From: the human T2T-CHM13v2.0 reference genome, Homo sapiens
Strand: one strand, 5' to 3'
Assembly (NCBI RefSeq): GCF_009914755.1
Contig: NC_060936.1
DNA length: 64,000 nt
Made by a program: the position numbers and the translations under genes. This document shows positions 1-55,135 of the stretch, piece after piece; the stretch's first letter is position 1, and the number at the start of each line of letters is the position of its first letter. The notes below the pieces were generated by a model that was given only the letters and a program-made list of their open reading frames with translations, had not been told where the DNA came from and searched no databases.

Positions 1-12635
<12,635 letters not shown>

Positions 12636-14373: not shown

Positions 14374-15393
14374 GAGGAACTCAAATATGGCTGAATAGGA
14401 ATAGCTCCAGTCTACAGCTCCCAGCCTGTGTGACACAGAAGATGGGTGATTTCTGCATTTCCAAATGAGGTACTGTGCTCATCTCACTGGGGAGTGCTGG
14501 ACAGTGGGTGCAGGACAGTGGGTGCATCCCACTGTGTGAGAGCCAAAGCAGGGTGAGGCATCACCTCCTCTGGAAAGGGCAAGGGGTCAGGGAGTTCCCT
14601 TTTATAGTCAAAGAAAGGGGTGACAGATGGCACCTGGAAAATCGGGTGACTCCCACCCTAATACTGTGCTTTTCCAGTGGCCTTAACCAATGGCACACCA
14701 GGAGATTATATCCTGCACATGGCTCAGAGGGTCCTATGCCCAAGGAGTGTCACTCATTGCTAGCAAATCAGTCTGAGATCAAAGAGCAAGGTGGCAGTGA
14801 GGCTGGAGAAGGGGTGCCCACCTTTGCCAAGGCTTGAGTAGGTAAACAAAGCAGCTGGGAAGCTTGAACTGGGTGGAGACTGCCACAGCTCTAGGAGGTC
14901 TGCCTGCCTCAGTAGGCTCCAACTCTGGGGACAGCATAGAGACAAACAAAAGGCAGCAGTAACCTCTGCAGACTTAAATGTCCCTGTCTGAGAGCTTTGA
15001 AGAGAGTAGTGGTTTTCCCAGCATGCAGCTGGAGATCCGAGAATGGGCAGACTGCCTCTTCAAAGGGGGCCCTGACCACTGAGTAGCCTAACTGGGAGGC
15101 ACCCCCTGGTAGTAGCAGGCTGACACTTCACAAGGCCCAGTACTCCCCTGAGACAAAACTTCCAGAGGAAAGATCAGGCAGCAGCATTTACAGTTGACCA
15201 ATATACGTGGTTCTGCAACCACCACTTCTGATACCCAGGCATACAAAGTCTGGAGTGGACCTCCAGCCAACTCCAACAGACTTGCAGCTGAGGGTCCTGA
15301 CTGTTAGAAAGAAAACTAACAAACAGAAAGGAAATCCACAACAAAAACCCATCTGTACATCACCATCACCAAAGGTAGACAAAAACCACAAAG
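14374..15393 (+). promoter_or_regulatory. L1 5'UTR internal promoter, decayed: YY1 site altered, CpGs largely deaminated, ZNF93-type ~128-bp segment retained (15147-15274)
   Basis: caaatatggctg replaces CAAGATGGCCG. Many CG->TG/CA changes. Extra sequence between tactcc and ctccaacaga relative to L1HS. Confidence 0.8.
14561..14824 (-). pseudogene. L1 antisense ORF0 remnant (start lost, internal stop)
   Basis: Translation GPSEPCAGYNLLV...IRVGVTRFSRC matches ORF0. ATG changed to AAG at 14824-14822; in-frame TGA at 14770-14768. Confidence 0.8.
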
Positions 15394-16408
15394 ATGGGGA
15401 AAAAGCAGAGCAGAAAAACTGGAAACTCTAAAAAACAGAGCACTTCTCCCCATCCAAAGGAATGCAGCTCCTCACCAGCAATGGAACAAAGCTGGATGGA
15501 GTATGACTTTTACGAGTTGAGAAGAAGGCTTCAGAAGATTAAACTGCTCTGACCTATGGGAGGAAGTTTGAACCAATGGCAAAGAAGTTAAAAACCTTGA
15601 AAAAAAATTAAATGAATGGCTAACTAGAATAACTAATGAAGAGAAGCCCTTAAAGGACTTGAAGGAGCTGAAAACCATGGCACAAGAACTACAAGACAAA
15701 GGCACGAGCCTCAGTAACCGATGCGATCAAATGGAAGAAAGGTTATCAGTGATGGAAGATGGAATGAATAAAATGAAGCGAGAAGAGAAGTTCAGAGAAA
15801 AAAACAATAAAAAAAAACGAACAAAGCCTCCAAGAAATATGGGACTATGTGAAAAGACCAAATCTACGTCTGATTGGTGTACCTGAAAGTGACGGGGAGA
15901 ATGGAACCAAGTTGGGAAAACACTCTGCAGGATATTATCCAGGAGAACGTCCCCAGTCTAGCAAGGCAGGCCAACATTCATATTCAGGAAATACAGAGAA
16001 TGCCACAAAGATATTCCTCGAGAAGAGTAACTTCAAGACACATAATTGTCAGTTTCACCAAAGTTGAAATGAAGGAAAAAATGTTAAGGGCAGCCAGAGA
16101 AAGGTCGAGTTAACCACAAAGGGAAGCCCATCAGACTAACAGCTGATCTCTTGGCAGAAATTCTACCAGCCAGAGGAGAGTGGGAGCCAATATTCAACAT
16201 TCTTAAAGAAAAGAATTTTCAACCCAGAATTTCATATCCAGCCAAACTAAGTTTCATAACTGAAGGAGATACAAAATACTTTACAGACAAGCAAATGCTG
16301 AGAGAATTTGTCACCACCAGGCCAGCACTGAAAGAGCTCCTGAAGGAAGCAATAAACATGGAAAGGAACAACAGCTACCAGCCACTGCAAAAACATGCCA
16401 AATTTTGA
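15394..16408 (+). pseudogene. L1 ORF1p (RNA-binding coiled-coil protein), frameshifted
   Basis: ATG GGG AAA AAG CAG at 15394. Fragments KRPNLRLIGVPESDGENGTKL, ENTLQDIIQEN and KEKNFQPRISYPAKLSF fall in different frames. Confidence 0.93.
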
Positions 16409-16471
16409 AGACCACCAAGGCTAGGAAGAAACTGAATCACCTAACGAACAAAATAACCAGCTAACATCATA

Positions 16472-20298
<3,827 letters not shown>

Positions 20299-20353
20299 AC
20301 AATGAGAACACATGGACACAGGAATGGGAACATCACACACCGGGGACTCTTGT

Positions 20354-20374
20354 GGGTTGGGGGAGGGGGTAGGG
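20354..20374 (+). other. L1 3'UTR G-tract, potential G-quadruplex
   Basis: gggttgggggagggggtaggg: four G runs of at least 3 with short loops. Confidence 0.6.
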
Positions 20375-20522
20375 ATAGCATTAGGAGATATACCTAATAC
20401 TAAATGACGAGTTAATGGGTGCAGCACACCTACATGGCACATGTATACATATGTAAAAATCCTGCACGTTGTGCACATATACTCTAAAATTTAAAGTATA
20501 ATAATAATAAAATTTAAAAAAA

Positions 20523-44500: not shown

Positions 44501-46690
44501 TGAGACAAATGCCCACATCACAAAACAGTTCTCAGAAAACTCCTTTCTAGTTTTTATCAGAAGATATTTCCTTTTTCAATGTTGGCGTCAGTGAGATCCC
44601 AAATATCCCTTTGCAGATTTTCCAAAAAAAGCAGTGTTTCCAAACTGCTCAATCAAAAGAAAGTTTTAACTTTGTGAGATTTATGTATTCATCCAAAGCA
44701 GTTTCTCAGAAAGCTTCAGTCTGTTTATCTGAAGATATTTCAATTTCCACAGTAGGTCTCAATGCATTCACAAATGCACCTTTGCAGATTCTACAAGGCA
44801 GTGTTTCCAAACTGTTCCATCAAAAGAATGACTAAACTCTGTGAGATGAATGCACACATCTGAAAGCAGTTTCTCATAATGGTTCTTTCCAGTTTTATTG
44901 GAAGATATTTCCTTTTTCACCATAGGCTTATTCTGCACTTCCAAATATTGGATCTCAGATTTTTGCAAAAACAGTGTTTCCATACAGCTCAATCAAAAGA
45001 AAAGTTTAACTCTGTCAGATGAATTCACACATCACAAAGCTGTTTCTCAAAAAGCTTCTATCTAGTTTTTATCTGAAGATATTTCCTTTTTCCACTATAG
45101 GCTGCAAAGCGCTCCTAAATATCCCTAAGCAGAGTCTATAAAAAGTGTTTCCGGACTGTTCCATGAAAAGAAGGATTTAACTCTGTGAGATAAAGGCACA
45201 CATCAGAGAGCAGTTCCTCATAATGCTTCTTTCCAGTTTTTATCTGAAGATATTTCTTTGTTCACCATAGGCATTTTTGCACTGTGTATTATTGCTTTGC
45301 AGATTTTGCAAAAACAGTGTTTCTGAACTGCTCTGTCAAAAGAAAGGTTTAACTCTGTAAGAGGAATGCACACATTTTGGAGCAGTTTCTCAAAAAGCTT
45401 CTTTCCAGTTTTTATCCCAAGGTATTTCATTATTAACCATAGGATTCCATGTGCTCCCAAATATGCCATTGCAGATTCTAGAGAAACCGTGTTTCCAAGC
45501 TGCTCAATCAAAAAACAGGTTTAACTATGGGAGTTGAACACAGACATAACAAAGCAGCTTCACATAAAACTTCTTTCTAGTTTTTATCTGAAGATATTTC
45601 CTTTTTCACCGTAAGCCTCATTGCTCTCCCAAATATCCCTTCACAGATTCTACAAAAACAGTGTTTCCAAACTGTCCCATCAAAAGAAGGAGTTAACTCT
45701 GTGAGATGAATGCACACATCAGTAAGAAATCTCTCATAGAGCTTTTTTCCAGGTTTTATCAAGATATTTCCTTGTTCACCATAGGCTTTTTTGGGGCTAA
45801 CTAATATCGCTTTGCAGAATTTGCAAAAACAGTGTTTCCAAACTCTCAGTCAAAAGGAAGGTTTAACATTGTAAAATGAATACACACATCACAAAGCAGT
45901 TTCTGAAAAAGCTTATCTCTAGTTTTAATCTGAAAAATTTCCTTTTTCACCATAGGCCTATCTGCGTTTTCAAATATCCCATTGCAGATTCTACAAAAGC
46001 AGTGTTTCCAAACTCCTCAATCAAAAAACAGGTTTAACTATGAGAGTTGAATGCACACATCACAAAGCAGTTTCTCAAAAAGCTTCTTTCAGGTTTTATC
46101 TGAAGATATTTCCATTTTCACAATAGGCCTTGGTGTACTCCCAAATATATCTTTGCAGATTCTACAAAAATAGTGTTTCCAAACTGTCCCATCAAAAGAA
46201 GGATTTAACTCTGTGAGATGATCAAACACATCAGAAATCAGTTTCTATTAACACTACTTTCCATTTTTATCTGAAGATATTTCATTGTTCTCCATAGGAA
46301 TTTTTGTGCTACCTAACACAGATTATGGAAAAATAGTGTTTCCAAACTTCTCAGTCAAAAGAAAAATTCAACTATGTGAGAAGAATGCAGACATCATGAA
46401 GCAGTTTCTCAAAGAGCTTGTTTCTAGTCTTTATCCAAAGATATTTCCTTTTTCACCATAGGCATAATTGTACTCCCTAATATCCCTTTGCAGATCCTAC
46501 AAAAATAGTTTTTCTGAACTGCTCAATCAATAGAAACGTTTAACTCTGTGAGAAGAATGCCCACATCACAAAGCACTTTCTCAGATAGCTTCTGTCTTGT
46601 TCTTCTCTGAAGATATTTATCTTTCTACCATAGGACTCAATGCACTCCCAAATATCCTTTCACAGTTTCTACAAAAACAGTCTTTCCAAC
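20523..46690 (-). repeat. Monomeric alpha satellite
   Basis: 171-bp alphoid motifs; several internally deleted monomers (~30115, ~41745). Confidence 0.98.
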
Positions 46691-46891
46691 AGTTTGGAAA
46701 CACTATTTTTCCATAATCTGTGTTAGGTAGCACAAAAATTCCTATGGAGAACAATGAAATATCTTCAGATAAAAATGGAAAGTAGTGTTAATAGAAACTG
46801 ATTTCTGATGTGTTTGATCATCTCACAGAGTTAAATCCTTCTTTTGATGGGACAGTTTGGAAACACTATTTTTGTAGAATCTGCAAAGATA
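46691..46891 (+). repeat. Inverted 201-bp alpha-satellite insert, exact reverse complement of 46148-46348
   Basis: Base-by-base comparison shows no mismatch, including private variants (gatgatcaaacac, ctattaacactac, acctaacacagattatgg). Confidence 0.96.
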
Positions 46892-49800
46892 ACTGTTCCA
46901 ATAAAAGCAGGACTTAACTCTGTGAGATGAATGCACACATCAGATAGCAGTTTCTCATAATGCTTCTTTCCAGTTTTTATCTGAAGATATTTCCTTTTTC
47001 ACCATAGGCTTTTTTGTGCTATGTAATATTGCTTCACAGGTTTTGTAAAAACAGTGTTTCCAAACTGTTCCATCAAAAAAAGGACTTCAGTCTGTGAGAC
47101 GAACGTACACATCAGTAAGCAGTTTCTCTTAACACTCCTTTCCAGTTTTTATCTGAATATATTTCCTTTTTAACCGCTGGCTTTTTTGCACCACTTAATA
47201 TCACTTCACAGGTTATACAAAAACAGTGTTTCCAAACTCTTCATTCAAAAGAAAGTTTTCCCCTCTGAGATGAAGGCACACATCTCAAAGCAATTTCTCA
47301 AAAATTATTTCTACTTTTTATCCAAAGATATTTTCTTTTTCATCATTGGCCTAACAGTGCTTTCAAATGTCCCATTGCAGATTCTATAAAAGCAGTGTTT
47401 CCAAACTGCTCAATAAAAAGAAAGGTTTAAATCTATGAGAAGAATGCACACATCAGCAAGCTATTTCTCAGAAATCTTCTCTGCAGTTTTCATCCAAAAT
47501 TATTACCACAGGCCTCACTGTGCTCCCAAAAATCCCTTCATAGATTCTACCAAAACAGTTTTTCTAAATGGCTTAATCAAAAGAAATGATTAACTCTGTC
47601 ACATGAGTGCACACATCACAGAGTAGTTTTTCAGAAAACTTCCTTCTTGTTTTTATCTGGAGTTATTTCGTTTTTCACCATAGGCCTCAATGTGCTCCAA
47701 AATAACCCTTCACAGATTCTGCAAAAAGGATGTTTCCAAATAGCTCCAATGAAGGAAAGATTTAACACTGTGAAGTGTATGCACACATCACAAATCACTG
47801 TCTCAGAAAGATTATTTACAGTTTTTATCTAAAGATGTTTCCTTTTTCACCATAGGCTCCTTCGTGCTACCTAATATAACTTCGCAGATTATAGAAAAAC
47901 AGGGTTTTGAAACTGCTCTATCAAAAGAAATGTTCAACTCTGTGAGATGAATGCACACATCAGAAAGTAATTTCTGATAATGCTTCTTTCCAGTTTTTCT
48001 CTGAGGATATTTCCTTTTTTACCATAGGCTTTTTTGCACTACTTATATCCCTTTGCAGATTACACAATAACTGTGTTTCCAAACTGCTCTGTCAAAAGAA
48101 AGGTTTAACTCTTTGAGATGAATGCACATATCACAGAGCAGTTTCTCAAAAACCTTCTTTGTAGTTTTTATCTGAACATATTTCCTTTTTCACCACAGTC
48201 CTAACTGTGCTTTCAAATATCCCATTGCAGATTCTACAAAAACACTGTTTCCAAACTGCTCAATCAAAAGAATGGTTTAAATCTTTGAGAAGAATGCACA
48301 CATCACAAACTGTTTCTCAGAAAGCTTCTTTGTAGTTTTTATCCAAAGTTAGTTATTTCCTTTTTCACCATTGGGTCAGTGCAATCCCAAATATCCTGTG
48401 TTAGATTCTACCAAAACAGTGATTCCAAACTGCTCAAACAAAGGAAAGGTCTAACTCTGTCAGATGAATGCACACATCAGAAAGTAGTTTCTCAGAAAGC
48501 TTCTTTTTAGTTCTTCTCTGATGACATTTCCTTTTTCATCAGAGGTCGCAATGTGCTCTCAAATATCTGTTTGTAGATTCTAGAAAAACACTTTTTCCAA
48601 ACTACTCAATGAAAAAACAGGTTTAACTCTGTGAGTTGAATGCACACATCACAAAGCAGTTTCTCAAAAAGCTTCTTTTTACTTTTTATCCGAATACATT
48701 TTCTTTTTCACCCCAGGCCTCAATGCACTACAAAATATACGTTTTCAGATTCTCCAAAAATAATGTTTCCAAACTGGTCAATCAAGAGAAAAGTTTAACT
48801 CTGTGAAATGAATGCATACTTCACAAAGATATTTCTGAGATAGCTTCTATCTAGTTCTTCTCTGAAGATATTTCCTTTTCCACCATAAGCCTCAATGTGA
48901 TCCCAAATATACCTTTACAAATTCTACAATAACAATGTTTCAAAAATGCTCAGTCAAAAGAAAGGTTTAACTCTGTGAGAAGAATGCACACATCACAAAG
49001 CACTTTCCCATATAGTTTCTCTATAGTTTCAATCTGAAGACATTTCCTTTTTCAACTTAGGCCTCAATGCACTCAAAAATATCCCTGCACTCAAAAATAT
49101 CCCTTTAAAGATTTAACAAAAACATTGTTTCCAAACTTCTCAATCAAAATAAAGATTTAGCTCCATGAGCTGAGTGAACACATCACAAAGCAGTTTCTCA
49201 GAAAACTTCTGTTAGTTTTTTTCAGAAGACATTTCCTTTTCCACAATAGGTCTCAATCCACTCCCAAATATCCCTTCACTCGCAAACCCTACAACTACAG
49301 TGTTTTCAAACTGCTCAATCAAAAGAAAGCTTTAAATCTGTGAAATGAATGCATGTATGACAAAGCTGTCTCTCAGAAAGCTTCTTACTTGTTTTTATCT
49401 GAAGATATTTCCTTTATCACTATTGGCTTCAATGTGCTCCAAAATATCCCATCACAGATTCTGCAAAAGCAGTATTTCCAAACTGCTCAATCAAAAGAAA
49501 GCTTTACATCTTTTAGATGAATGCAGACATCACAAAGAAGTTTCTCAAAAAACTTTTGTCTAGTTTTTTTCTAAAGGTATTTCCTTTCCAAACCTAGGCC
49601 TCAATGAACTCCCAAATAACCCTTCGCAGACCCTTCAAAAACAGTGTTTCCAAATTGCTCTAAAGAAAGGCTTAACTCTGTGAGATGAATGCTAACATCA
49701 CAGAGAAGTTTCTCAGAAAGCTTCTTTCTAGTTGTTCTCTGATGATATTTCCTTTTTCACCCTTGGGCCAAAGGCACTGCTAAATATCCCTTTGCAGATC

Positions 49801-50623: not shown

Positions 50624-51408
50624 CATCAGAGAATTGCAAATCAAAAGCACAAGGAGATACCATCTCACACCAGTTAGAATGGCAATCATTAAAAAGTCAG
50701 GAAACAACAGGTGCTGGAGAGGATGGGGAGAAATAAGAACACTTTTACACTGTTGGTGGGACTGTAAATTAGCTCAACCATTGTGGAAGTCAGTGTGGCA
50801 ATTCCTCAGGGATCTAGATCTAGAAATACCATTTGATCCAGCCATCCCATTACTAGGTATATACCCAAAAGACTATAAATAATGCTGCTATAAAGACATA
50901 TGCTCACTTATATTTATTGTGGCACTATTCACAATAGCAAAGACTTGGAACCAACCGAAATATCCAACAATGATAGACTGGATTAAGAAAATGTGGCACA
51001 TATCCACCATGGAATACTATGCAGCCATAAAAAAGGATGAGTTCATGTCCTTTATAGGGACATGGATGAAATTGGAAATCATCATTCTCAGTAAACTATC
51101 ACAAGGACAAAAAACCAAACACCACATGTTCTCACTCATAGGTGGGAATTGAACAATGGGAACACATGGACACAGGAAAGGGAACATCACACTATGAGGA
51201 CTGTTGTGGAATGGGGGAGTGGGGAGGGATAGCATTAGGAGATATACCTAAAGCTAAATAAAGAATTAATGGGTGCAGCACACCAGCATGGCACATGTAT
51301 ACATACATAACTAACATGCACATTGTGCACATGTACCCTAAAACTTAAAGTATAATAATAATAAAATAAAATTAAAAAAGAATACAAGATAAATACCAAA
51401 AAAAAAAT
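50624..51408 (+). mobile_element. 5'-truncated LINE-1 (~785 bp), L1PA3-like
   Basis: ORF2 C-terminus ([23 protein letters not shown] ... MFSLIGGN). Variants aaattggaaatc, caccagcatgg, ataactaac. A-rich tail. Perfect 12-bp TSD aacataggcctc at 50612-50623 and 51409-51420. Confidence 0.95.
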
Positions 51409-54400
51409 AACATAGGCCTCAATGCACTGAAAAATATCCCTGTGCTCAAAAATATCCCTTCACAGATTCTAGAGAAACAGTGTTTCCAAACTTCTCCATC
51501 AAAAGAAAAGATGAACTCAGTGAGATGAGTGAACACATCACAAAGCAGTGTCTCAGAATGCTTCTTTCTAGTTTTTATCAGAAGATATTTCCTTTTTCAT
51601 TGTAGGCTTCAATGAGCTCCCAAATTTCCCATTTTGCAGAATCTACAAAAAAAGTTTTTCCAAACTGCTCAATCAAAACAAAGGTTTAAATCTGTGAGAT
51701 GAATGCAAACATCAAAAAGCAGTTACTCAAAAAATTTCTCTCTAGTTTTTATCTGAAGATATTTCTTTTTACATACTAGCCTTCAATGTGTGTCAAAATA
51801 TCCCTTCTGTTATTCTACAAAAACAGTATTTCCAAACTGCTCAATAAAAGGAAAGGCTTAAATCTGTCAGATGAATGCAAACAATGCAAAGAATTTTCTC
51901 AGAAAGCTTCTTTCTAGTTCTTCTCTGATTATATTTCCTTTTTCACCATAGGCCTCAATGCGTTCCGAAATATTCCTTTTCAGATTCTACAAAAACAGTG
52001 TTTCCAAACTGCTGAATCAGAAAACAGGTTGACCTCTGTGAGTTTAATGTGCACATCTCAAAGCAGTTTCTCAAAAACTTCCTTGTAGTTCTTATCTGAA
52101 GATATTTCCTTTTTCACAATTGGCTTAAGTGCACTCCCAAATATACCCTTGCAGATTCTACAAAAACAGTGTTTCCAAATTGCTCAATCAAAAGAAAGTT
52201 TAATTCTGTGAAATGAATGCACACATCAAAGAGCAATTTCTCAGATAGCTTCTGTCTACTTCTTCTCTGAAGTTATTTCCTTTTCCACCATAGCCCTCTG
52301 TGTGCTCCTAAATATCCCTTCGGAGATTCTATAAAAACAGTATTTCTGAACTGTTCCATCAAAAGAAGGATTTAACTCTGTGAGATGATTGCACTCATCA
52401 TAAAGCAGTTCCTCATAACACTTCTTTCCAGTTTTTATCTGAAGATATTTCCTTGTTCACCATACTCCTGTTGTGTGACCTGACATTGCTTCACAGATTA
52501 TACAAAAACAGTGTTTCTAAACTGCTGAGTCAAAAGAAAAGGTCAAATATGTGAGATGAATGCATACATCACAAAGCGCTTTCTCAAAAGGCTTCTTTCT
52601 AGTTTTCATCCGAAGATATTTCCTTTTACACCGTAGGCTTCAGTGCAAATTCAGTGAAATGTCCCTTTGCAGAATCTACAAATGCAGTATTTTCAAACTG
52701 CTCAATCAAAAGAAAGATTTAACTTTTTGAGAAGAATGCACACATCACAAAGCAGTTTCTCAGAAAGCTGCTCTCTAGTTTTTATCTGTAGATATTTCCT
52801 TTTTCAACATAGGCCTCAAAGTGCTCAAAAATATTCCTGGGCTAACAAATATCCCTTTGCTGATTCTACCAAAACAGTGTTTCCAAAGAGACCAATGAAA
52901 AGAAAGGGTTAATGCTGTAAGATGAATGCACACATCACAAAGCAGTTTCTCAAAAAGCTTCTTTCTAGTTTTTATCTAAAGATATTTCCTTCTTCACCAT
53001 AGGCTTTAATGCATCCCCAAATATGACTTCACAGATTCTACTAAAGCAGTGTTTCCAAACTGCTCCATCAAAAGAAAGTTTTAACTCTGTGAGACGAATG
53101 CACACATCACAAAGGAGTTTCTCAGGAAGCTTCTGTCTAGTTCTTCTCTGAAGATAATTCCTTTTCCAACATAGGCCTCAAAGCACTCCCAAATATCCCT
53201 TCACTGATTCTGCAAAAACAGTGTTTCCAAACTGTTCCATCAAAAGAAGGACTTAACTGTGTGAGACAAACACACACTTCAGAAAGCAGTTTCTCATAAC
53301 ACTTTTTTTCCAGTTTTTATCAGAAGCTATTTCCTTGTTCACCATAGGCCTTTTTGCACTACCTAATATCACTTTGCAGATTATACAAAGAAACAGGGTT
53401 TCCAAACTACTCAGGCAAAAGAAAAGTTTAACTCTGTGAGATGAGTGCATACATCACAAAGCAGTATCTCAAAATCTTCTTTCTAGTTTTTTTCCCAAGA
53501 TATTTCCTTTGTCACCATAGGCATCAGTGCACTTGCAAAAATCCCTTTGCAGATTCTACAAAAACAGTTTTTCCAAAGTGCTCTATCAAAAGAAACGTTT
53601 AAGTGTGTGAAAAGAATGCACACATCACAAAATGGTTTCTCATAAAGCTTCTTTCTAGTTTTTATCTGAAGTTATTTTCTTTTTCACCACAGGCCTCAAG
53701 CACTCCAAAATTTCCCTTCTCAGATTTCTACAAAAACATTGTTTCCAAACTGATCAATTAAAGGAAAAATTTAACTCTGTGAGATGAATGCACACATAGC
53801 AAAGCAGTTTGTCAAAAAGTTTCTCTCTTCTTTTTATCTGAAGATATTTCCTTTTTCACCATAGGCTTCAATGCACTCCCAAATATCCCTTCGCAGATTC
53901 TACAAAAACAGTGTTTCAAAACTGCCCAATCAACAGAAAGGTTTAACTGTGTGAGATGAATTCAGGCATCACAAAGCAGTTTATCAGAATGTTTCTGTCT
54001 AGTTATTATCTGAAGATATTTCCTTTTCCACCATAGGCCTCAATGAGCTCCCAATCTCCCTTCGAAGATTCTACAAAAACAGTGTCTCTAACTGATCCAT
54101 CAAAAGGAAGACTTAACTCTATGAGATTAATGCACACATCAGAAAGCAGTTTCTCATAATGCTTCTTCACAGATTTTATCTAAAGATATTTCCTTGTTCA
54201 TGATAGCCTTTTTTGTGCTACCAAATATTGCTTCACAGATTTTGCAAAAACAGTGTTTCCAAACTGCTCAGTCAAAAGAAAGTTTAACTCTGTAAGATGA
54301 ATGCATACATCACAAAGCAGTTACTCAAAAATCTTCTTTCTAGTTTTCATCTGAAGATATTTCCTTTTTTGCCATAGTCATCAGTGTATTCCCAAATATC

Positions 54401-54834: not shown

Positions 54835-55135
54835 TTTTTTCTTTTCTTTTTTTTGAGATGGAGTTTCGCTCTGTTGCCCAGGCTGGAGTGCAGTGGCCCG
54901 AGCTCAGATCACTGCAAGCTTCACCTCCTGGTTTCTCACCATTCTCCTGCCTCATCCTCCTGAATAGCTGGGACTACAGGTGCCTGCTACCATGCCCAGC
55001 TAATCTTTTGTATTTTTAATAGAAATGGGGTTTCACCATGTTAGCCACGATGGTCTCGATCTCCTGACCTTGTGATCCACTTGTCTCGGCCTCCCAAAGT
55101 GCTGGGATTACAGGCATGAGCCACTGCACCTGGCC
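54835..55135 (-). mobile_element. Older, CpG-decayed AluY-family element
   Basis: Minus strand GGCCAGGTGCAGTGG..., GATCACAAGGTC, CTGTAGTCCC, AGCTTGCAG. Interrupted A tail; no clean TSD. Confidence 0.92.

What the first reader, a model, noticed from the sequence alone, without database searches (positions are those of the whole stretch)
46148..46891. Perfect 201-bp inverted templated insertion exactly two monomers from its source, with a fold-back junction
Seen: 46691-46891 is the exact reverse complement of 46148-46348, whereas neighbouring monomers are visibly diverged. It is the only orientation flip I saw in ~56 kb of satellite. The spacer is 342 bp (2 x 171), so the insert begins at the position homologous to the end of its source (tttccaaact). 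The host monomer is split almost without loss (tttccaa | actgttcc). The left junction is itself a hairpin (tttccaa-cagt-ttggaaa, 46683-46700), and aacagtttggaaa is the reverse complement of the host site. Inference: a recent fold-back/template switch (FoSTeS/MMBIR or Pol-theta-like) primed on the host site, jumped in register to a homologous monomer, copied 201 nt and returned. The product is a 201-bp stem-loop plus a tight quasi-palindrome that could extrude or give dsRNA if transcribed, and may be an early stage of inversion formation in alphoid arrays.
Basis: partly seen in the sequence, partly recalled or inferred. Interest (0 to 1): 0.8.

Follow-up and report, generated by a model that had tools for sequence, protein, structure and literature searches.

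The report
Young inverted duplicate in alpha satellite
A 201-base piece of centromere-flanking satellite DNA on human chromosome 12 was copied backwards and inserted 342 bases away, a real but fairly ordinary copying slip that shows how such arrays acquire flipped segments.

Summary
46691-46891 is the exact reverse complement of 46148-46348 (201 nt, 342 nt between). It is the only reversed piece in the window (334 plus, 1 minus monomer hits). The only 100% match in the whole CHM13 genome is this local source; the next best is 83%. Other monomer pairs average 78% identity, with a maximum of 91.5%.

It is a 202-bp insertion: one odd C plus a 201-nt copy. It splits a host monomer with no loss and no target duplication.

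The most likely cause is a short-range polymerase template switch, a known kind of mutation.
- "342 = 2x171", "starts at the homologous position" and "hairpin junction" are one fact, with chance about 4%.
- Both junctions have 0-1 nt of microhomology.
- Zero differences in 201 nt only bounds the age to under about 7.5-15 Myr.

Flips are not rare outside the window. I counted 11 strand switches in 314 kb, 8 of them bounding four short flipped segments. Only this one is young. None of the other three shows an in-register junction where I could test for one. It is a new member of a known kind, of modest interest.

The parts
46148..46348 (+). Source arm. It is 201 nt, about one monomer plus 30 nt, in the array's own orientation and phase. 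It runs from HMM position about 170 of one monomer to position 36 of the next-but-one boundary. Both ends carry the same 20-nt block.
   Evidence: It is the only 100% match to the insert in the whole genome.
46349..46689 (+). Spacer of 341 nt, plus the odd base, between source and copy. It holds two monomer lengths in normal plus orientation.
46656..46689 (+). Left part of the split host monomer (HMM about 1-33), ending ...TTTCCAA.
   Evidence: The start coordinate is extrapolated from the neighbouring nhmmer hit, 46486-46652 = HMM 2-168.
46690..46690 (.). A single base, C, that neither the source (which would give A) nor the host plus strand accounts for. It is either untemplated or copied from a G that follows the motif in the host and in most other monomers.
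46691..46891 (-). Inverted copy: the exact reverse complement of 46148-46348. It is the only minus-oriented satellite in the window.
46892..47026 (+). Right part of the split host monomer (HMM 34-168), starting ACTGTTCC. With the left part it makes a monomer of about 172 nt.
46683..46700 (.). Quasi-palindrome at the left junction: a 7-bp perfect stem and a 4-nt loop, extended imperfectly to about 30 nt per arm. It arises because the host arm and the start of the inverted copy are homologous monomer positions.
   Evidence: -11.6 kcal/mol, z -4.35.

Best explanation
This is a real structural mutation in old, non-homogenised monomeric alpha satellite on the q side of the chromosome 12 centromere. 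It is a 202-bp insertion made of one odd base plus a 201-nt reverse-complement copy of sequence lying 342 nt upstream. It sits between two adjacent bases of a host monomer.

Most likely mechanism: a DNA polymerase extending the plus-sequence strand left its template after 46689. It landed on the strand of the same polarity behind it, the lagging-strand template of the same fork, opposite 46348. It copied leftwards for 201 nt to 46148, then returned to its own template at the next host base (now 46892). In the four-point template-switch notation the switch points are ordered 3-2-1-4, with point 4 directly after point 1.

Shown: the product, the intact local source, the exact junctions, and the lack of target loss.
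Inferred: that a polymerase switch rather than ligation made it, which strand and fork direction were involved, and that the odd C is an untemplated or misaligned base.

I put about 0.8 on the copy-choice class as a whole (fork or break repair) and 0.45 on the replication-fork version stated here. I see no evidence that the insert has a function. It is a neutral scar that creates a 201-bp inverted repeat.
For: - The copy is exact, inverted and local. The source is still in place and is the only 100% match in 3.1 Gb; the next best is 83%.
- The host monomer is split between adjacent bases with no deletion and no target-site duplication. This fits a switch and return.
- The source lies 342-543 nt behind the break and the copied tract is 201 nt. 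These distances are of the order of a lagging-strand gap, which is my recalled general knowledge and was not tested.
- The left junction lies in the most conserved 10-column block of the monomer: columns 25-34, mean conservation 0.914, the top window of the 170-column alignment.
- This event type is already described outside satellites. Opposite-strand non-tandem duplications made up 21 of 166 supported local rearrangements in one human genome (PMC5829575, passages). The four-point switch-and-return model is set out in PMC5453318 (passages).
- At least one older clean insertion of the same type lies in the same array: about 160 bp at chr12:37,916,196-37,916,356, with the host phase continuous across it.
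Against: - Junction microhomology is minimal: 0-1 nt at the right junction and one unmatched base at the left. Replicative switching is usually argued from 2 nt or more. Blunt joins with a 1-nt addition look more like end joining.
- An exact return to the next base without microhomology is hard to explain for a free 3' end.
- The copied tract (201 nt) and jump (342 nt) are larger than the 'few tens of base pairs' for which the four-point model was documented.
- Fork direction, strand and enzyme cannot be read from the sequence.
- No reads, other human haplotypes or ape genomes could be examined. The ancestral state, and even the insert's presence outside this assembly, are untested.
Confidence: 0.45

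Rival explanations
1. Double-strand-break repair with snap-back synthesis. The host monomer broke between 46689 and 46892 and the left end was resected by more than about 540 nt. Its 3' tail then folded back on itself with a 342-nt loop and was extended for 201 nt on its own upstream sequence. It unwound and was joined to the right end by end joining.
For: This gives the same product and explains three features: the blunt right junction, the single added base at the left junction, and the clean target. The template (plus strand, upstream) is exactly what resection of the left end would expose. The local inverted source is shown.
Against: Snap-back inserts attributed to polymerase theta are usually much shorter than 201 nt and use at least 2 nt of microhomology; both points are recalled, not tested. 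There is no microhomology between the 3' end (...CCAA, with or without C) and the bases beyond 46348 (flanks). A 342-nt loop is long for an intramolecular snap-back.
Confidence: 0.25
2. The nascent end first folded onto the host site itself, pairing its terminal AA with the TT just ahead, and copied about 11 nt. That made the C and the hairpin. It then re-annealed in register, through the conserved 10-nt block, to the monomer two units back, copied the rest, and returned.
For: It explains both the odd C at 46690 and the in-register relation, which has about 4% chance otherwise. The 13-mer at 46688-46700 is the exact reverse complement of the rejoined host site. The block is the most conserved part of the monomer.
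Against: - It rests on one informative base. That G follows the motif in 107 of 131 copies in the window, so it does not point to the host site.
- It needs an extra template jump.
- The one other clean short insertion (flip C) has its host break at HMM about 109, not in register.
- The oldest short flip shows no junction palindrome: z -0.70, with 39 of 200 shuffles folding as well.
- A genome-wide exact search for head-to-head copies of the block gave 30 hits against 20 for the control, with at most 4 in centromere-like positions.
Confidence: 0.12
3. Capture of a free DNA fragment by non-homologous end joining. A roughly 201-bp double-stranded copy of the neighbouring sequence was ligated in inverted orientation into a clean break. 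The fragment could have come from the sister chromatid or from a replication by-product.
For: Both junctions are blunt or carry a 1-nt addition, and there is no target loss. A fragment of 201 bp is about the size of a nucleosome plus linkers, which is recalled and not tested.
Against: A copy has to exist while the source stays intact. A fragment drawn at random from the genome would hardly come from 342 bp away, and the only 100% source in 3.1 Gb is local. This reading does not explain the in-register relation.
Confidence: 0.12
4. Assembly or sequencing artefact, such as a chimeric fold-back read built into the consensus.
For: Fold-back chimeras do occur in long-read libraries (recalled). I could not inspect any reads.
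Against: The structure has two precise junctions and returns to the original strand and phase after 201 nt. A library chimera would give a whole-read palindrome, not this. The consensus rests on many reads (recalled, not checked). Older inserts of the same form lie in the same array.
Confidence: 0.03
5. An old inverted insert whose arms are kept identical by gene conversion between them.
For: Arm-to-arm conversion is known for large palindromes (recalled). Perfect identity alone does not date the event.
Against: Arms of 201 bp with a 342-bp spacer are near the lower limit for efficient conversion (recalled). The match ends abruptly at both ends with no decayed homology beyond. The three older short flips in the region have no partner above background, 77-87%.
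Confidence: 0.02

Closest known systems
Short-range template-switch mutations, four-point model (Loytynoja and Goldman 2017, PMC5453318; passages read)
   Same: A single switch-and-return copies a nearby fragment in reverse complement, creates a perfect inverted repeat or hairpin in one step, and leaves the source intact. The focal event is described by four points: 46689, 46348, 46148 and 46892.
   Different: [quoted passage not shown] Here the copied tract is 201 nt, the jump is 342 nt, the context is satellite, and one base is unexplained.
Localized non-tandem duplication on the opposite strand (Frith and Khan 2018, PMC5829575; passages read)
   Same: A segment is duplicated and inserted nearby in the opposite orientation without target deletion. 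This is a recurring class: 21 of 166 supported rearrangements.
   Different: That survey discarded rearranged regions more than 50% covered by tandem repeats, so satellite cases were not covered. It also had read support and an ape outgroup, which I do not have.
FoSTeS / MMBIR replicative rearrangements
   Same: The nascent 3' end leaves its template, copies a nearby template (often inverted), and returns.
   Different: The defining junction microhomology is not seen here (0-1 nt). The described cases are usually kilobases to megabases and often complex.
Polymerase-theta snap-back templated insertions at break repair junctions (recalled; no paper read here)
   Same: A reverse-complement copy of sequence close to the break is inserted at the junction.
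   Different: As I recall, those inserts are typically tens of nt with at least 2 nt of microhomology. This one is 201 nt with none.
Strand switches ('inversions') in divergent or monomeric alpha satellite. Altemose et al. preprint 10.1101/2021.07.12.452052 (passages); 10.64898/2026.07.22.740206 (passages); PMC13684623 (passages).
   Same: It is an orientation change inside an alpha-satellite array. [quoted passage not shown]
   Different: Those works count switch points or analyse large events (over 20 kb in PMC13684623). The passages I read give no junction-level anatomy. This case is demonstrably a duplicative insertion, not a balanced inversion.
Large fold-back inverted duplications (Hermetz et al. 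2014, PMC3907307; search listing and start of abstract only)
   Same: An inverted duplication with a short spacer, ascribed to a fold-back.
   Different: Those are large, chromosome-end events. This is an interstitial 201-bp insert that returns to the original strand.

Membership tests
Short-range template-switch mutation (four-point model) | The new segment is the reverse complement of nearby sequence | tested here: met
   201/201 nt, source 342 nt upstream
Short-range template-switch mutation (four-point model) | One switch-and-return reproduces the product with no residual differences | tested here: inconclusive
   Everything is reproduced except one base, C at 46690
Short-range template-switch mutation (four-point model) | Event size of a few tens of bp, as in the defining study | tested here: not met
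   201-nt copy and 342-nt jump, against the wording of the paper
Short-range template-switch mutation (four-point model) | Ancestral (unswitched) state shown by a close relative | not testable with these tools
   No other human or ape assembly is available. The ancestral state is inferred only from the restored 172-nt monomer.
Non-tandem duplication, opposite strand (Frith and Khan) | Duplicate inserted nearby, inverted, with the source retained | tested here: met
Non-tandem duplication, opposite strand (Frith and Khan) | No deletion at the target (as opposed to the 'with deletion' class) | tested here: met
   The host is split at HMM 33|34 and the monomer is restored to about 172 nt
FoSTeS / MMBIR | Microhomology of 2 nt or more at breakpoint junctions | tested here: not met
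   The right junction has 0-1 nt and the left junction has one unmatched base. A 2-nt AA/TT pairing exists only under the three-step variant.
FoSTeS / MMBIR | Templated segment from a nearby template, possibly inverted | tested here: met
Polymerase-theta snap-back insertion | Short templated insert primed by microhomology next to the break | tested here: not met
   201 nt, template 342 nt away, no priming microhomology. The family's typical sizes are recalled, not looked up.
Balanced inversion within alpha satellite | A segment is flipped in place, with no gain of sequence and no second copy | tested here: not met
   The source copy persists and the host monomer is complete without the insert
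Alpha-satellite strand switch (as counted in centromere surveys) | Change of monomer orientation inside an array | tested here: met
   334 plus and 1 minus hits; MINUS segment 46690-46890

The most novel reading that the evidence does not exclude
Most strand switches in monomeric alpha satellite are not balanced inversions. They are short (under about 1 kb) duplicative inverted insertions made by polymerase template switching, with a preferred landing point at the most conserved, quasi-palindromic block of the monomer (HMM about 30-36).

The focal insert would be a rare fresh example in which source, junctions and register can still be read. In the 314 kb I examined, 8 of 11 switches bound four short flipped segments. 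Both clean insertions have the start of the inverted copy, in the host's frame, at HMM about 32-36. That is n = 2, and the older boundary is only good to about +/-5 nt.
Probability: 0.2. Interest if true: 0.5.

Novelty: new member of a known kind. Interest (0 to 1): 0.3.

Why it matters
Divergent alpha satellite is known to be full of orientation changes, but the passages I read treat them as counts of 'inversion breakpoints'. This insert is young enough that its source and both junctions can still be read to the base. It shows that at least some strand switches are duplicative inverted insertions of about one monomer, not inversions.

If it is polymorphic among human haplotypes, it gives a datable, junction-resolved example of the mutational process that decays dead centromere layers. 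The 201-bp perfect inverted repeat it creates could serve as a marker for testing whether such repeats are stable in heterochromatin. Nothing here suggests a cellular function.

Tried and rejected
One search failed on a missing field and I did not pursue it.
2. A gapped local alignment of junction regions to a tripled consensus used gap penalties that were too lax. It aligned straight through the junctions, so I discarded it. I replaced it with an ungapped k-mer orientation scan, which recovered the known focal junctions as a control.
3. By eye, the older 0.3-kb flip (chr12:37,794,070-37,794,372) seemed to carry a fold-back junction at the same block. Testing did not bear this out. There was no inverted repeat at its left junction other than an 11-nt overlap palindrome at 82%. 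The fold was no better than shuffles (-7.3 kcal/mol, z -0.70, 39 of 200 shuffles as good). I rejected the idea.
4. Searches for local sources of the three other short flips found nothing above background. Best inverted matches were 81-87% for the 0.3-kb flip, and 77-78% for the 1-kb flip and 77-83% for the 0.16-kb flip. The only hits at >=92% were 39-51 nt long.
5. A genome-wide exact pattern for head-to-head copies of the conserved block, 0-8 nt apart, gave 30 sites against 20 for the reversed control, mostly on chromosome arms. This is no sign of a hotspot. The test is insensitive in 20-30% diverged monomers, and the focal site itself, which has a variant base, is not matched by it.
6. I looked for priming microhomology between the host 3' end and the bases beyond either end of the source and found none.
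7. In-place inversion is excluded for the focal event because the source is retained. For the 1-kb and 0.3-kb flips, neither a clean insertion nor a clean in-place inversion fits the monomer phases.
A wider survey was therefore not possible.

Full report
**1. The observation**

Reading 45900-47200 and an inverted-repeat scan of 45000-48000 show arms 46148-46348 and 46691-46891. They are 201 nt, 100% complementary, with 342 nt between them. A script confirmed the exact reverse complement and that the next base on either side does not match. All 24 inverted pairs reported in that 3-kb stretch have one arm inside 46688-46891. The other 23 are 74-93% complementary, which is ordinary similarity between the flipped piece and plus-oriented monomers.

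In a self-BLAST of the whole window at >=93% identity, this pair is the only non-self hit on either strand.

Two independent orientation maps agree that this is the only flip in the window:
- BLAST of 171-bp probes cut from 45000-48000, leaving out the insert region (5,322 HSPs), gives one MINUS segment, 46690-46890.
- nhmmer with a monomer HMM built from 9 monomers gives 334 plus hits and 1 minus hit.

Satellite covers about 56.1 kb of the window. The rest is five non-satellite blocks.

Monomer identities in the window:
- All pairs: mean 78.2% (sd 3.5), over 40,399 pairs aligned for >=140 nt.
- Adjacent monomers: mean 78.0%, maximum 87.7% (n=261).
- Best pair apart from this one: 91.5%.

A perfect 201-nt match is therefore far beyond chance. 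By my arithmetic, 0.915^201 is about 2e-8.

**2. Anatomy**

In HMM coordinates, the source runs from about position 170 of one monomer to position 36 two boundaries on, so it is one monomer plus 30 nt. Both of its ends carry the same 20-nt block.

The host monomer ends at ...TTTCCAA (46689, HMM 33) and resumes at ACTGTTCC (46892, HMM 34). Nothing is lost or duplicated. Without the insert the monomer is about 172 nt.

The inserted DNA is 202 bp: a C at 46690, then the 201-nt copy. The source would have given A at that place.

That C is the complement of the G that follows the motif in the host. The same G follows the motif in 107 of the 131 copies of the 10-mer in the window. The source is one of only 9 copies with T there. 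The perfect match therefore stops exactly where the source departs from the consensus.

The right junction is blunt, with at most 1 nt of ambiguity. I found no pairing between the host 3' end and the bases beyond either end of the source.

**3. One coincidence, not three**

The host break is after HMM 33 and the source end is after HMM 36, two monomers upstream. The spacer of 2x171, the 'insert begins at the homologous position' and the junction hairpin all follow from that single fact. The hairpin has a 7-bp stem and a 4-nt loop, with an imperfect extension (-11.6 kcal/mol, z -4.35, 0 of 200 shuffles).

The chance of an offset within +/-3 nt is 7/171, about 4%. That is suggestive but post hoc. 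The junction does lie in the most conserved 10-column block of the monomer (columns 25-34, mean 0.914). The next block is nearly as conserved, at 0.911.

**4. Source and uniqueness**

A search of the whole assembly (3.1 Gb) with 46640-46940 found the locus itself and the source at 100%. The next best hits, on chromosomes 7, 5 and 12, were at <=83%. That tool scores only the best candidates. The copy is local and the junctions are unique.

**5. Context outside the window**

I fetched 200 kb to the left and 50 kb to the right.

In the resulting 314 kb of contiguous monomeric satellite (chr12:37,620,001-37,934,000) there are 12 orientation runs, so 11 strand switches. They include a 134-kb block, an 8.4-kb block and four short flipped segments:

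| Segment | Approx. position on chr12 | Size |
|---|---|---|
| Oldest short flip | 37,794,070-37,794,372 | about 0.3 kb |
| Focal insert | 37,866,691-37,866,891 | 0.2 kb |
| 1-kb flip | 37,908,215-37,909,211 | about 1.0 kb |
| 0.16-kb flip | 37,916,196-37,916,356 | about 0.16 kb |

The four short segments account for 8 of the 11 switches. So 'the only flip' is true of the window but not of the array.

Only the focal one is young. The others have no inverted partner above background: 81-87% and 77-83%. In the 264 kb tested at >=90% identity, 54 unique pairs were found. The focal pair is the only one above 93.7%, and all pairs at >=93% other than it lie in non-satellite (transposon) blocks.

The 0.16-kb flip is a second clean insertion. 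Its host phase is continuous across it (HMM about 110|109), and its inverted copy starts, in the host's frame, at HMM about 30-33. Its host break is not in register. The 0.3-kb and 1-kb flips fit neither a clean insertion nor a clean in-place inversion. The junction palindrome I suspected in the 0.3-kb flip was not confirmed.

**6. Age**

Zero differences in 201 nt gives a 95% upper bound of 14.9 Myr at 0.5e-9 per site per year, or 7.5 Myr at 1e-9. The medians are 3.4 and 1.7 Myr. The insert is much younger than the array, whose monomers differ by about 22%. It need not be recent on a human timescale. It could be private to CHM13, polymorphic, or shared with apes, and I could not test which.

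**7. Mechanism**

The product is a duplicative, inverted, local copy placed between two adjacent bases. This is what a polymerase switch-and-return gives (four-point model, PMC5453318, passages).

My preferred version is a switch at a replication fork. The strand growing rightwards leaves its template after 46689 and lands on the lagging-strand template opposite 46348. It copies 201 nt back to 46148 and returns at the next base.

The break-repair version gives the same product: the resected left end snaps back on itself, is extended, and is then end-joined. It explains the blunt junctions better.

Capture of a free fragment by end joining explains the junctions but not the 342-nt proximity.

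However, it rests on one base that most monomers share, it needs an extra jump, and neither the other inserts nor a genome-wide pattern search echoes it (30 sites against 20 for the control).

The near absence of microhomology means the event fails the defining test for FoSTeS/MMBIR and for polymerase-theta joining, although it may still work in a similar way.

An artefact is unlikely, given two exact junctions and older inserts of the same form nearby, but it is untested.

**8. What is known**

- Opposite-strand non-tandem duplications are a recurring class of local rearrangement in human DNA: 21 of 166. That survey left out tandem-repeat regions (PMC5829575, passages).
- About 89.6% of alpha-satellite strand switches lie in monomeric regions (10.64898/2026.07.22.740206, passages).
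- A pangenome study restricted its higher-resolution inversion summaries to events over 20 kb (PMC13684623, passages).

In four literature searches and the passages read, I found no junction-level description of sub-kilobase inverted duplicative inserts inside monomeric alpha satellite. This is not an exhaustive search. I could not see the supplementary strand-switch tables of these preprints, and they may already list this site.

**9. Verdict**

The insert is a well-preserved example of a known kind of mutation in a setting where it has not, to my knowledge, been dissected. Its value is as a datable exemplar, and as a hint that many 'inversions' of dead centromere layers are really short inverted insertions. 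Interest 0.3.

Noticed in passing
Outside the window: chr12:37,649,299-37,783,002 (loci L011-L025): A 134-kb block of monomeric alpha satellite lies in the opposite orientation to its flanks. Its breakpoints are near 37,649,267/299 and 37,783,002/055. They fall at different monomer positions (about HMM 87 at the first, about HMM 2 on both sides at the second) and neither is at the focal block.
   Followed up: partly
L026:4070-4372 (chr12:37,794,070-37,794,372): An old flipped segment of about 0.3 kb inside plus-oriented satellite. About 64 nt of the host monomer is missing (HMM 61-125). There is no source above 87% and no junction palindrome.
   Followed up: yes
L032:2196-2356 (chr12:37,916,196-37,916,356): An old flipped insert of about 160 bp that splits a minus-oriented host monomer without loss (HMM about 110|109). 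One end lies at HMM about 30-33, close to the position of the focal source end.
   Followed up: partly
L031:4215-5211 (chr12:37,908,215-37,909,211) and L030-L031 (37,899,794-37,908,221): A flipped segment of about 1 kb nested beside an 8.4-kb flipped block. Strand switches are dense here: 5 in 50 kb.
   Followed up: partly
window 14374-20520: A 6.1-kb non-satellite block with broken reading frames. One frame (18403-19137, plus strand) matches the reverse-transcriptase family RVT_1 (E 4e-20). It is about 90% identical to other blocks of similar size in the flanks. This is consistent with an old full-length LINE-1; the name is my inference.
   Followed up: partly
window 4979-5303, 12341-12634, 54839-55134, 50627-51436: Three non-satellite inserts of about 300 bp (Alu-sized; identity not checked against a library) and one 0.8-kb block that matches the 3' parts of the 6-kb blocks at about 90%.
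   Followed up: no
G000:C18:15914931, 15916641, 15926857: The pattern search hit the same 24-nt perfect palindrome three times within 12 kb in the chromosome 18 centromere region. It consists of head-to-head copies of a GTTTCCAA-type half-site with an 8-nt centre. It may be a repeated inverted junction in a higher-order array.
   Followed up: no
G000:C2:20973810-20973829: A chromosome-arm site carries the same core as the focal left junction, including the same 4-nt loop. It is probably chance: 30 hits against 20 for the control.
   Followed up: no
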